From: a virus | Lineage: Duplodnaviria > Caudoviricetes | IMG/VR virus record: IMGVR_UViG_3300032216_001937 | Location: 1-40,845 of that record | DNA length: 40,845 bases | Strand: one strand, 5' to 3' | Shown: in pieces, positions 3,303 through 5,429 of the stretch | Layout: each line of letters starts with the position of its first letter | Numbering within the stretch: position 1 is the first letter of the stretch | Translations under genes and position numbers: made by a program | Notes under the pieces: model-generated | What the model was told of the DNA's origin: nothing | Seen by the model: the letters and a program-made list of their open reading frames with translations, nothing else | Databases searched by the model: none

Positions 3303-3967
3303 TTATATGACTTCTTTCTCCAGAAAACATTTTTATACCATCCATCTGATGCGTTCATTTCGTAATCTCTTCCAATTTGCGCCATTCCAGGAACACGTTC
3401 TTGCTTCCAATCTTCACGCAAAAATGGGATGACCTGAACAATAGGCGTTCCCTTTGGAATCAATCCTTCAAAACCTTCTCTAAGAAAAAACGGGTAATTG
3501 CCGCCCATCAATTTTGAATCGTTGTCAATGATTGCAGAAACCGTAATAAAAGGAAGGTCAAATCTGTTCAGTGGGTGACAGTAGACAGCGCTGTATCCTT
3601 CGGGTAACTCAATACAATGACGAGTAAGCCATGTCCAGTAATACGGTTCGTAACCATGAGGAACGGGCATTGGGTCTGTTTGGGAACTGTGACGAGCACT
3701 TGGCCCTGCATCAACGTCGGAGAAATAAAGACTTGGTGCACCCTCTTTGTTTCGTTCAACCATAATGTCGGTCATTAAACAAATTGAATACCCAGCGGTC
3801 AAAGAGTCTAAAAAGGGTATGCAATATTTTGCTGATTTTGTGTTGCTGTCACCAGGAATAATTACGTTCCTGGGAATTTTTTTGTACCACTCAGGAACAA
3901 CAGTTCTTGTTGGAACAACTTCATCTTTATAGCCCATAAGGCTATCCCATTTAAACACTTGTCTCAC
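3299..3967 (-). CDS. dUTPase-fold-like protein of the family that accompanies phage 2OG oxygenases (DUF6065-like)
   Basis: PEWYK, K.C.PFLD...GY, P.GYS...HP.NR.DLPF, I.KGTP..Q.IPF.R..W motifs; GTG start with GAAAGAGG RBS. Confidence 0.65.
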   Translation of the reverse strand: MRQVFKWDSLMGYKDEVVPTRTVVPEWYKKIPRNVIIPGDSNTKSAKYCIPFLDSLTAGYSICLMTDIMVERNKEGAPSLYFSDVDAGPSARHSSQTDPMPVPHGYEPYYWTWLTRHCIELPEGYSAVYCHPLNRFDLPFITVSAIIDNDSKLMGGNYPFFLREGFEGLIPKGTPIVQVIPFLREDWKQERVPGMAQIGRDYEMNASDGWYKNVFWRKKSYK

Positions 3968-4157
3968 AAAAACCTCTTTCTAGGTATTTAGAGATTAGCA
4001 CAAACTCTCGGTCTGAAACGTGTTGCCTGTAAGCCTCAACACAAAGGGTGCAGCGGCAATTGTGTCTACTTTGATGAACAGAAAAAGTTCCATGCACAAT
4101 TTCTTTTCGCGGATTTCTAACCATGCAACGTGAATTGCATTCACACCATTTTTTCAT
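3951..4157 (-). CDS. small Cys/His-rich protein with HGT-x-CRC-x2-C motif
   Basis: VHGTFSVHQSRHNCRCTLCVEAY; GGGGAG RBS. Confidence 0.65.
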   Translation of the reverse strand: MKKWCECNSRCMVRNPRKEIVHGTFSVHQSRHNCRCTLCVEAYRQHVSDREFVLISKYLERGFCETSV

Positions 4158-4171
4158 TTTTGCTCCCCATG

Positions 4172-4633
4172 CTACTTTGTTCCGAGACTACGGTTCGAAC
4201 GTAGAATGACAGATTCAAAGTCTGTAGTGTTGCCGGTTACACCATCTCGGATTGTTTTTTTCTTTAATTCTCTTTTACGACGTGAGTTCTGTCTCATCCA
4301 TTCCATACACTCAAAACACTTACATTTGTGTTTATTATAACCGTTATTGGTTCCATGAACAAGAGGTTTTTTAAATTCACTAATTGTTTTTTGTTTGTGG
4401 CAATAATAACACAGAACTTGACATTTTTTTAATTCTTCCTTACGGCGTTTTTCGGAAAAACTCCATATTCGATGAGTGGTTTTACCTGCTCTTTCTATGT
4501 GGTCAACTTCAAGTCTTTCAACTGAACCGCATTTAACACATTTGCCGCCTTGAGAATCAATCCATTCAAGACGGCGTTTTTGAAGCCATGTGTTCTGAAA
4601 AGCATTTTGTTTTTTTTTGTCTTTATATGACAT
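4172..4633 (-). CDS. HNH endonuclease with C-terminal HGT-CxC-x2-C module
   Basis: CVKCG...LEVDH...CQVLCYYCHKQKT. Plausible start is ATG 4633, directly after the tRNA-Asn CCA; the ORF-track start 4666 lies inside the tRNA. Confidence 0.85.
   Translation of the reverse strand: MSYKDKKKQNAFQNTWLQKRRLEWIDSQGGKCVKCGSVERLEVDHIERAGKTTHRIWSFSEKRRKEELKKCQVLCYYCHKQKTISEFKKPLVHGTNNGYNKHKCKCFECMEWMRQNSRRKRELKKKTIRDGVTGNTTDFESVILRSNRSLGTK
4180..4251 (-). tRNA. tRNA-Gln(UUG), no encoded CCA
   Basis: Cloverleaf: TCCGAGA/TCTCGGA acceptor, GTGT/ACAC D stem, ACAGA-CTTTGAA-TCTGT anticodon arm, CTACG-TTCGAAC-CGTAG T arm. Confidence 0.92.
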
Positions 4634-4709
4634 TGGCTCCGGGGGCACGACTTGAACGTGCGACATATCGATTAACAGTCGATTGTTCTGCCAACTGAAC
4701 TACCCCGGA
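4634..4709 (-). tRNA. tRNA-Asn(GUU) with encoded CCA
   Basis: Cloverleaf: TCCGGGG/CCCCGGA acceptor, GTTC/GAAC D stem, ATCGA-CTGTTAA-TCGAT anticodon arm, GCACG-TTCAAGT-CGTGC T arm, G-CCA end. Confidence 0.95.
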
Positions 4710-4716
4710 TTGCGAA

Positions 4717-4986
4717 TTAACGCAAACGCTTTTTAGGCGTAGGTGCTTCCGTAATCTTTTTTGAAGTTGACTTTGGCTTTGGCTTTGCAGGAGCAACCGC
4801 AGGCATAAGTGCTTGCAATTGTGCGTCAAGTGCTTCAAGCGAAGAAATAATTTGCTCTGCTTGTTTTTCTGCATTTGCAATATACTTCTCAGCCTTTGCT
4901 AGATACTTCTTTGCCACTGCAAGTCCACCGCCAGCAGTACCTGCCCAAGCAGTCGCAACTGAAATAATTGATGCTGTGTTTGACAT
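4717..4986 (-). CDS. hypothetical protein: hydrophobic N-terminus, coiled coil, Lys/Pro-rich tail
   Basis: Start ATG 4986 after GAAAGGA RBS; C-terminus PAKPKPKSTSKKITEAPTPKKRLR. Confidence 0.7.
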   Translation of the reverse strand: MSNTASIISVATAWAGTAGGGLAVAKKYLAKAEKYIANAEKQAEQIISSLEALDAQLQALMPAVAPAKPKPKSTSKKITEAPTPKKRLR

Positions 4987-5011
4987 TTTTTCCTTTCGGG
5001 TAACAAAGAGA

Positions 5012-5040
5012 ACAGTACACCAACGGAGCAATCATTGCAA
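5012..5040 (-). promoter_or_regulatory. sigma70-type promoter for the leftward arm
   Basis: TTGCAA-N17-TACTGT on the minus strand, upstream of the RBS of the first leftward gene. Confidence 0.55.
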
Positions 5041-5050
5041 GAATTAATAC

Positions 5051-5078
5051 TTGATTTTTTCAAAACGTGAGGTAGTTT
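5051..5078 (+). promoter_or_regulatory. sigma70-type promoter for the rightward arm (leaderless candidate)
   Basis: aatacTTGATT-N16-TAGTTT with ATG 5 nt downstream; lies at the strand-switch point. Confidence 0.5.
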
Positions 5079-5083
5079 TTGGT

Positions 5084-5230
5084 ATGAAACAATTTACAGA
5101 AGTTGAAGACATTCAACATGAACACAAAGCAGAGCCAATGCTTACGCCCAAGCACGTTCGCAATTTCTGTCAAATTTGTCAGCAGCCAATTTACTGGCTA
5201 GAACAATGGCTGCACCACGATGGCCAATAG
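5084..5230 (+). CDS. 48-aa putative zinc-binding protein (HKAEP...CxxC...WLH)
   Basis: Manual translation MKQFTEVEDIQHEHKAEPMLTPKHVRNFCQICQQPIYWLEQWLHHDGQ. Confidence 0.6.
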   Translation: MKQFTEVEDIQHEHKAEPMLTPKHVRNFCQICQQPIYWLEQWLHHDGQ

Positions 5231-5429
5231 TACCGAGATAAAAAGACTTGAAATGATAGTTGAGCGCATATCTGCCCTTTATGGGCTTAACGTGCCCGAA
5301 CAAGTTTCCAAAGAAATTGACAGCCTAACCCTTGATATCGAGTGGCTTTGTGATAGACTTACAAAAGCCTGGTCAATGGTAACCTCTTACCAAGAGGAAA
5401 TAAGGGAATTGTACAATGAAGGAAACTAG
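5220..5429 (+). CDS. hypothetical helical protein
   Basis: 69-aa ORF in operon context. Confidence 0.65.
   Translation: MANSTEIKRLEMIVERISALYGLNVPEQVSKEIDSLTLDIEWLCDRLTKAWSMVTSYQEEIRELYNEGN

What the first reader, a model, noticed from the sequence alone, without database searches (positions are those of the whole stretch)
4172..4709. tRNA-punctuated HNH gene: ATG abuts the tRNA-Asn CCA and the reading frame runs through the whole tRNA-Gln
Seen: tRNA-Asn ends ...GCCA at 4634 and the next three bases are the ATG (4633), leaving no room for an SD. The last ~25 codons (IRDGVTGNTTDFESVILRSNRSLG) are the tRNA-Gln itself, with the stop 6 nt beyond it. Known: homing endonucleases occur in phage tRNA clusters, actinobacteria translate leaderless mRNAs, and RNase P cuts at tRNA 5' ends. 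Inference: endonucleolytic 3' processing of tRNA-Asn would create a leaderless HNH mRNA, whereas RNase P maturation of tRNA-Gln would remove the stop codon (non-stop mRNA, tmRNA tagging). tRNA processing would then both switch on and limit a toxic nuclease, resembling mitochondrial tRNA punctuation.
Basis: partly seen in the sequence, partly recalled or inferred. Interest (0 to 1): 0.8.

Follow-up and report, generated by a model that had tools for sequence, protein, structure and literature searches.

The report
Phage nuclease gene wedged between tRNAs
A small DNA-cutting enzyme gene in an uncultured phage starts right at the end of one tRNA gene and reads through the next; it likely moves between phages together with those tRNAs and is likely translated only after the first tRNA is cut out, but the read-through looks like a by-product, not a built-in off switch.

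Summary
The layout is real: tRNA-Asn (4709-4634, with CCA), ATG at 4633, a 153-codon HNH gene reading through tRNA-Gln. The gene belongs to phrog_4234; 101 of 122 sampled lineages lie within 150 nt of a tRNA or tmRNA. Related phages show empty, deleted and methylase-filled versions of this site. Shared tRNA alleles suggest tRNA-HNH-tRNA moved as one block, SegB-like. HNH-bearing tRNA-Asn alleles have a flipped T-stem pair (3 of 3, against 0 of 5 HNH-free), a possible self-immunity mark.

The 5' idea holds up partly. 4633 is the family start, it has no usable SD or promoter, and 10 of 75 lineages start 1-4 nt after a tRNA. But the CCA-ATG junction is not conserved, and other genes may abut tRNAs as often.

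The 3' switch is not supported as selected. A same-site relative stops before tRNA-Gln. Whole-tRNA read-through is rarer than chance (4 of 34, 10.3 expected). The tail shows little protein-level constraint. Overlap also occurs with antisense tRNAs. Stop loss by tRNA processing was already proposed for SegB. No RNA data were available and the host is unknown.

The parts
4634..4709 (-). tRNA-Asn(gtt) with encoded CCA; T-stem pair 52-62 is C-G (4658/4648) instead of the usual G-C
   Evidence: ARAGORN; Rfam 67.1 bits; T-arm table
4172..4633 (-). HNH endonuclease gene, 153 aa, ATG directly after the CCA
   Evidence: phrog_4234 E 2e-36; alignment A2
4253..4633 (-). Conserved core, codons 1-127: D44-H45, H79, cysteine pairs C32/C35 and C75/C78, second predicted zinc site H93/C104/C106/C109; Lys70 where many HNH proteins have Asn
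   Evidence: model pLDDT above 90 for blocks 1-130; dN/dS 0.18 against L001
4172..4252 (-). Non-conserved tail, codons 128-153, almost all encoded by tRNA-Gln
   Evidence: dN/dS 0.81 over codons 128-151; pLDDT 51-59; absent from most homologues
4180..4251 (-). tRNA-Gln(ttg), no encoded CCA, T-stem 52-62 also C-G
4607..4616 (-). Left copy of a 10-nt A-rich direct repeat; likely left end of the deletion in six related contigs
4252..4261 (-). Right copy of the 10-nt A-rich direct repeat, directly before tRNA-Gln
4664..4666 (-). In-frame ATG inside tRNA-Asn used by gene callers (164-aa form); rejected as the start
   Evidence: (P0002 164 aa; 79%-identical P0003 is 153 aa)
4717..4986 (-). Upstream 89-aa ORF with an SD-like AAAGGA, ending 7 nt before tRNA-Asn; likely co-transcribed; flank marker
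3951..4157 (-). Downstream 68-aa Cys/His-rich ORF, weakly like the HNH's C-terminal zinc module; present in empty-site phages too; flank marker

Best explanation
This is an HNH nuclease gene of a family that sits against phage tRNA genes; it likely acts as a free-standing homing endonuclease that spreads together with its two flanking tRNA genes, and it is likely translated as a near-leaderless message released when tRNA-Asn is cut at its 3' end, while the read-through of tRNA-Gln is likely a tolerated by-product of being packed flush against that tRNA. Shown: gene layout, family identity, purifying selection on the core, filled/empty/deleted alleles, and mosaic tRNA alleles. Inferred: DNA cleavage, with the canonical T-arm of tRNA-Asn in HNH-free phages as the likely target and the C52-G62 T-stem as likely self-protection; homing with co-conversion; co-transcription from upstream; initiation on a processed end with a 0-3 nt leader. 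RNase P cleavage at 4252/4251 would leave a stop-less 127-codon message and could lower output, but nothing shows that this was selected.
For: Family and mobility:
- 101 of 122 lineages lie within 150 nt of a tRNA or tmRNA.
- The same Asn-Gln site is filled (window, L001, L022), empty (L202, 10-nt spacer; L204 and L013, 1-nt spacer), filled by a methyltransferase-like gene with its own SD (L203), or reduced to a 26-28 nt scar that keeps the first HNH codons (6 contigs).
- L202 is 92% identical to the window over 1,493 nt up to the first base of tRNA-Asn but has different tRNA alleles. The scar phages have the window's tRNA alleles but 74-80% identical upstream DNA.

T-stem signal:
- tRNA-Asn 52-62 is C-G in 3 of 3 filled alleles and in 0 of 5 HNH-free, scar-free alleles.
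- The L001 and L203 tRNA-Asn genes differ only in the T-stem.
- Family-wide, flanking tRNAs lack GGTTCRANYCC in 59 of 110, against 182 of 446 others (within-locus permutation p 0.004, within-isotype p 0.018).
- SegB recognises this motif (PMC2330249, passages).

Expression:
- Core dN/dS is 0.18.
- The start stays 2-4 nt from the discriminator in all 3 members of the window's clade (support 100), across three different junctions.
- The abutting class has its own start signal in 1 of 10 lineages, against 71 of 111 others.
- Streptomyces cuts CCA-encoding tRNAs between the Cs (PMC4681348, passages).
- A 5' ATG suffices in mycobacteria (PMC4633059, passages).

By-product reading of the 3' end.
Against: - No nuclease assay and no RNA data.
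- The host is unknown: the terminase's best cultured matches are Arthrobacter phages at only about 35%, the capsid has no match, and many genes in the window have ordinary SD sites.
- Short leaders cut leaderless initiation about 2-fold per base in Caulobacter (PMC8459731, passages), so a 2-3 nt leader would be translated poorly.
- Abutting starts are not enriched over a mechanical control (10 of 68 against 7 of 59, p 0.8; 2 of those 7 proved to be HNH genes).
- The lack of own start signals in abutting genes is partly built in, since the upstream bases are tRNA.
- The T-stem idea is post hoc. The family-wide effect is modest, with nine correlated tests. Abutting homologues L097 and L219 follow a canonical tRNA-Asn T-arm. 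C52-G62 tRNA-Gln alleles also occur without an adjacent HNH (L009, L011, L013).
- The loop Asn is Lys here.
- Six contigs have lost the gene.
- Ordinary recombination could also give mosaic tRNA alleles.
Confidence: 0.5

Rival explanations
1. One reading: a selected two-sided switch. tRNA-Asn processing turns the gene on, and RNase P at tRNA-Gln removes the stop so that tmRNA tagging turns it off; only the half-processed intermediate makes stable nuclease.
For: Layout kept between the window and L001 although both tRNA alleles differ. 34 of 59 lineages with a nearby downstream sense tRNA have their stop inside or beyond it. 4 of 10 abutting lineages also overlap. A similar stop-removing cut was proposed for segB (PMC2330249).
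Against: L022 stops before tRNA-Gln. Full read-through is 4 of 34 against 10.3 expected (p 0.01). The latest-stopping frame is used in 2 of 34. Antisense overlap is 5 of 11 (p 0.52 against sense), and ends within 7 nt occur in 9 of 11 against 46 of 59. Abutting and overlap are not coupled: 4 of 10 against 28 of 105, p 0.46. The whole conserved core lies before the cut.
Confidence: 0.15
2. Same mobile gene, but translated weakly from the unprocessed precursor (GGAG in the acceptor stem, SD-independent initiation, or re-initiation from upstream). Processing only destroys the message, and the abutting start is plain compaction or insertion at a short microhomology.
For: GGAG lies 3 nt before the ATG. 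The empty sites L204 and L013 read CCA-A-T into tRNA-Gln, and the same four bases flank the window's insert on both sides, which could place the ATG there mechanically. Several T4 homing endonuclease genes have no discernible or badly spaced initiation sites (PMC2988022, passages). No enrichment over the control.
Against: The GGAG is paired in the predicted acceptor stem and absent from L001 and L022. There is a gap at 5-8 nt in the spacing distribution (10 against 1, p 0.012; 8 against 1 without the two hand-added cases). A different passenger gene at this site carries its own SD (L203).
Confidence: 0.25
3. The gene is a silent or dying remnant that lost its expression signals on insertion.
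For: No promoter or usable SD. Deleted in 6 contigs. 3 of 6 changed codons in the X3 contig alter the amino acid.
Against: Core dN/dS is 0.18 against L001, which also abuts. All invariant residues are intact. Abutting is kept across a clade reaching about 61% identity.
Confidence: 0.1

Closest known systems
Phage T4 SegB (free-standing GIY-YIG homing endonuclease in the tRNA cluster; PMC2330249, passages; PMC13096335, abstract and section 10)
   Same: Free-standing nuclease gene among tRNA genes, absent from relatives. SegB cuts at the T-arm motif, best in tRNA-Asn, and drives inheritance of the tRNA region. The authors propose that tRNA maturation cuts between its last codon and its stop.
   Different: HNH fold, not GIY-YIG. 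segB has an SD hidden in a hairpin; here there is no leader. The frame here runs through the tRNA. Cleavage and homing are untested here.
HNH genes in tRNA arrays of mycobacteriophage clusters C and M and of mycobacterial arrays (PMC5966550, PMC6409571, PMC6582537, passages; Pope et al. 2014 seen only as cited there)
   Same: Same protein family: 120 of 154 phage records hit are Mycobacterium phages. Bricole starts 4 nt after a tRNA; LilhomieP starts 1 nt after tRNA-Asp and stops inside tRNA-Glu.
   Different: The passages read note only the association and a guessed role in spreading tRNA genes. They say nothing on flush starts, overlap, leaderless promoters or T-stem changes.
Mitochondrial tRNA punctuation (recalled; seen only in search listings)
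   Same: A coding sequence begins at a tRNA 3' end, and tRNA excision would define the message's ends.
   Different: One gene here, not the rule of the genome. The stop lies beyond the downstream tRNA and would be lost rather than completed by polyadenylation. No processed end is shown.
Phage GVE2 HNH endonuclease (PDB 5h0o) and related McrA/Endo VII-type HNH folds
   Same: Best structural match, Z 5.1, rmsd 3.8, 69 residues aligned, model 10-89. Most top Foldseek rows are HNH proteins.
   Different: All matches are weak (no Foldseek E at or below 0.001). The C-terminal zinc module has no clear match.

Membership tests
phrog_4234 HNH family | Full-length profile match | tested here: met
   Residues 1-127 of 130 positions, E 2.3e-36
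HNH (His-Me finger) nuclease | Catalytic His after an acidic residue on strand 1 and metal-binding His/Asn on the helix | tested here: met
   D44-H45 and H79 invariant in 65 sequences; definition from PMC5714182 passages. Pfam HNH 20.5 bits is just under its cut-off of 21.4.
HNH (His-Me finger) nuclease | Loop asparagine | tested here: inconclusive
   Lys70 stands at the likely position; the family pattern has K or N. The effect on activity is unknown.
Free-standing homing endonuclease (SegB-like) | Optional gene with cognate empty alleles in related phages | tested here: met
   L202 and L204 are empty, L203 has another insert, 6 scar contigs
Free-standing homing endonuclease (SegB-like) | Co-conversion of flanking sequence | tested here: inconclusive
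   Mosaic tRNA alleles fit it, but ordinary recombination is not excluded
Free-standing homing endonuclease (SegB-like) | Site-specific cleavage of the empty allele | not testable with these tools
   The T-stem pattern is only a hint
Free-standing homing endonuclease (SegB-like) | Biased inheritance in co-infection | not testable with these tools
   Uncultured phage
tRNA punctuation (mitochondrial type) | Coding start flush with the upstream tRNA 3' end | tested here: met
tRNA punctuation (mitochondrial type) | tRNA excision leaves a complete message | tested here: not met
   The stop lies 78-80 nt past the predicted RNase P site
tRNA punctuation (mitochondrial type) | General rule of the transcription unit | tested here: not met
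   Only 2 tRNAs in the window, which is about 47% of the genome; neighbouring genes have SD-like sites
tRNA punctuation (mitochondrial type) | Processed 5' end is translated | not testable with these tools
   Needs RNA end mapping and reporters

The most novel reading that the evidence does not exclude
A widespread family of tRNA-targeting HNH homing endonucleases has, about ten times, dropped its own promoter or SD and uses the cut that matures the upstream tRNA or tmRNA as its start signal. It borrows its stop from the next tRNA so that RNase P throttles it, and it carries T-stem-flipped tRNAs that protect its own genome. tRNA processing would thus gate a selfish nuclease that in turn reshapes phage tRNA sequences.
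Probability: 0.2. Interest if true: 0.75.

Novelty: new variant of a known kind. Interest (0 to 1): 0.45.

Why it matters
Homing endonucleases in phage tRNA clusters are known, and the stop-removal idea is in print for SegB. Two things here were not found in eight literature searches and are directly testable. First, translation from an end made by tRNA 3' processing in a bacterial system: cultured mycobacteriophages such as Bricole and LilhomieP have the same geometry, so it can be tested in M. smegmatis. Second, a named candidate target (the tRNA-Asn T-arm) and a candidate self-immunity change for an HNH family found beside tRNAs in over 100 lineages, which could help explain unusual T-stems in phage tRNAs. 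Annotators also misplace these starts (4666 here; 21 nt too late in LilhomieP).

Tried and rejected
- RNA evidence: no RNA holder was listed among 20 runs; this says nothing about expression. Four DNA runs laid as contigs showed no joint that skips the HNH gene; contigs show presence, not absence.
- Start at 4666: rejected (the 79%-identical relative has 153 aa).
- L003-L008 as pristine empty sites: rejected, since they keep the first HNH codons. The scar is 26, 27 or 28 nt, so no frame is conserved.
- Read-through as a conserved protein tail: rejected.
- Internal promoter: the scan found 2 sites in 3800-5300 against 2.9 expected, none before 4633.
- Host assignment: capsid, terminase and GroES searches did not settle it.
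- Structure: no solved relative at E 0.001 by sequence or Foldseek.
- Tree: only the quick tree finished, and 83 of 122 inner branches are open. The abutting label needs 10 changes, but starred branches force only 2, so 'about ten origins' rests mainly on the different RNA genes abutted.
- A first T-arm count registered fewer tRNAs (345) and gave a stronger effect; it was replaced (556 of 582).
- Pope et al. 2014 is not held. PMC6448022 and PMC4324244 passages gave nothing of use.
- Earlier scan findings by sequence, by place and by the first word search: none.

Full report
Observation. The window is a linear virus record, about 47% complete, with terminase, portal and capsid genes. It has two tRNA genes, both on the minus strand: tRNA-Asn 4709-4634 with encoded CCA and tRNA-Gln 4251-4180. 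ATG 4633 follows the CCA directly and opens 153 codons ending at TAG 4174-4172. A contig from another run of the same study covers 4179-4713 with 7 substitutions and no gaps.

The protein. Residues 1-127 match phrog_4234 over 1-127 of 130 positions. In 65 aligned homologues chosen from 146 hits, M1 is at least 90% conserved, so 4633 is the start and the in-frame ATG at 4666 is not. D44, H45, H79 and six of the seven cysteines named here are invariant, C78 and H93 nearly so; Lys70 stands where many HNH proteins have Asn. The model is confident to about residue 130 and poor beyond. Its best structural matches are weak HNH folds (GVE2 HNH, Z 5.1). Against L001 the core has dN/dS 0.18 and the tRNA-encoded tail 0.81; the tail's changes fall mainly in the paired stems of the tRNA.

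Alleles of this site. Filled: the window, L001 (78%) and L022 (61%). Deleted: six contigs keep the window's tRNAs and a 26-28 nt scar that begins with the first HNH codons and ends at a 10-nt A-rich repeat present at both ends of the gene. Empty: L202 (10-nt spacer), L204 and L013 (1 nt). L203 holds a methyltransferase-like ORF with its own SD (that label is my reading of the sequence). L202 is 92% identical to the window over 1,493 nt up to the first base of tRNA-Asn yet has different tRNA alleles, whereas the scar phages have the window's tRNAs and only 74-80% identical upstream DNA. I infer that tRNA-HNH-tRNA moved as a block. The tRNA-Asn T-stem has C52-G62 in 3 of 3 filled alleles and in the scars, and G52-C62 in 5 of 5 HNH-free, scar-free alleles; the L001 and L203 genes differ only in that stem. 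SegB recognises the canonical T-arm motif and cuts best in tRNA-Asn (PMC2330249, passages). This idea was formed after seeing the data. Family-wide, with the window left out, flanking tRNAs lack the canonical motif in 59 of 110 cases against 182 of 446 (permutation p 0.004 within loci, 0.018 within isotypes; the other eight tests gave 0.02-0.25). Counter-examples exist (L097, L219; C52 tRNA-Gln without an adjacent HNH in L009, L011, L013).

Family survey. 184 loci had a hit, 19 partial or ambiguous ones were dropped, and 165 fell into 122 clusters at 70% identity, one representative each. The window, L001 and L022 form one cluster. RNA genes were called by ARAGORN. Five calls were added by hand after an Rfam scan of 20 hand-picked loci, and 2 of the 10 abutting cases come from these. 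101 of 122 clusters lie within 150 nt of a tRNA or tmRNA.

The 5' end. A TAnnnT box 5-8 nt before the start occurs in 47 of 122 clusters (3% background) and an SD in 26, so the family leans to leaderless expression. Of 75 clusters with a sense tRNA or tmRNA within 150 nt upstream, 10 start 1-4 nt after the discriminator and 1 at 5-8 nt (p 0.012). They abut tRNA-Asn, Gln, Asp, Met, Leu, Ala, Arg, one tRNA of unassigned type and two tmRNAs. A pattern search found one more CCA-ATG case (L219). In the window's clade the spacing is 3, 4 and 2 nt with three different junctions: closeness is kept, CCA is not. A mechanical control of other ORFs after tRNAs gave 7 of 59 against 10 of 68 (p 0.8); two of the seven are HNH genes and the other five have unverified starts. 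Abutting may thus be a general habit of phage tRNA arrays. Earlier AI notes of this scan say so for other phages; they are unchecked and not independent support. On feasibility: S. coelicolor cuts most CCA-encoding tRNAs between the Cs (PMC4681348, passages), which here would leave a 2-nt leader. A 5' ATG is sufficient in mycobacteria (PMC4633059, passages) and a 5' phosphate is needed (PMC9031893, passages). Each added base roughly halves initiation in Caulobacter (PMC8459731, passages). Low output would suit a nuclease (inference). The host is unknown.

The 3' end. 46 of 59 clusters with a sense tRNA within 150 nt downstream end within 7 nt of it or inside it, and 34 overlap it. With antisense tRNAs, which RNase P cannot cut out of the HNH message, the counts are 9 of 11 and 5 of 11 (p 1.0 and 0.52); the antisense sample is small. 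Among the 34, reading through the whole tRNA occurs 4 times against 10.3 expected from the three frames of the same tRNAs (p 0.01), and the latest-stopping frame is used twice. Abutting and overlap are not coupled (4 of 10 against 28 of 105). L022 stops 4 nt before tRNA-Gln. The window is therefore an unusual, apparently tolerated extreme of a packing habit. An RNase P cut at 4252/4251 would still remove the stop and leave the whole core, so tmRNA tagging could follow (established knowledge, untested here). The SegB paper already proposes loss of the stop through tRNA maturation.

Comparison and novelty. It works like SegB and belongs to the HNH family already noted in mycobacteriophage tRNA arrays (PMC5966550, PMC6409571, PMC6582537, passages). 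It is not a member of mitochondrial-type punctuation, since excision leaves an incomplete message and the arrangement is local. Eight searches of the held library (listings, plus passages of the papers named) showed no report of flush starts or T-stem changes for this family. Subscription papers, including Pope et al. 2014, could not be seen, and no supplements were read.

Verdict. A real feature and a new variant of a known kind. Homing together with the tRNAs plus a processing-made start: 0.5. Selected on/off switch: 0.15. Precursor translation and plain compaction: 0.25. Dead remnant: 0.1. Interest 0.45.

Noticed in passing
L019:1403-1965 (Mycobacterium phage Rabinovish): The HNH homologue with its own promoter-like box appears to split an unannotated tRNA-Ser-like gene: a 5' part before the gene and a matching 3' part after it.
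   Followed up: no
window 3951-4157: A 68-aa Cys/His-rich ORF weakly resembles the HNH's C-terminal zinc module (tblastn E 4e-4 to 0.4). It has 10 relatives in viral contigs and no Pfam or PHROG match.
   Followed up: partly
L203:118-1109: A DNA methyltransferase-like gene with its own SD occupies the same Asn-Gln spacer, which marks the site as an insertion hot spot.
   Followed up: partly
L045 and L168: Sister HNH genes after a tmRNA: one uses the A of CCA as the A of ATG, the other has a 12-nt spacer with an SD. A natural pair for testing.
   Followed up: partly
L018:1501-1522 (phage LilhomieP): The family-aligned start is a GTG 1 nt after tRNA-Asp; the record's annotation starts 21 nt later.
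   Followed up: partly
L022:1616-1690 against L011:1445-1522: L022's tRNA-Gln resembles a tRNA-Tyr of L011 in its 5' part, suggesting an isotype switch or chimera beside the HNH.
   Followed up: no
L219:362-1076: Two HNH-like genes in tandem, each reading into the next tRNA; the second starts at a tRNA-Asn CCA and lacks the C-terminal zinc module.
   Followed up: partly
L016:1876-1955 (Streptomyces phage Navo): An unannotated tRNA-like sequence with an odd D-arm follows the HNH stop directly.
   Followed up: no
L175, L182 (twice), L078, L128: Non-HNH ORFs of 72-185 aa also have a possible start 1-2 nt after a tRNA discriminator.
   Followed up: partly
window 6925: A gene with a near-consensus promoter directly before its ATG (TTGACA, then a TAATCT box 1 nt before the start), a hint that this phage uses leaderless transcripts.
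   Followed up: no
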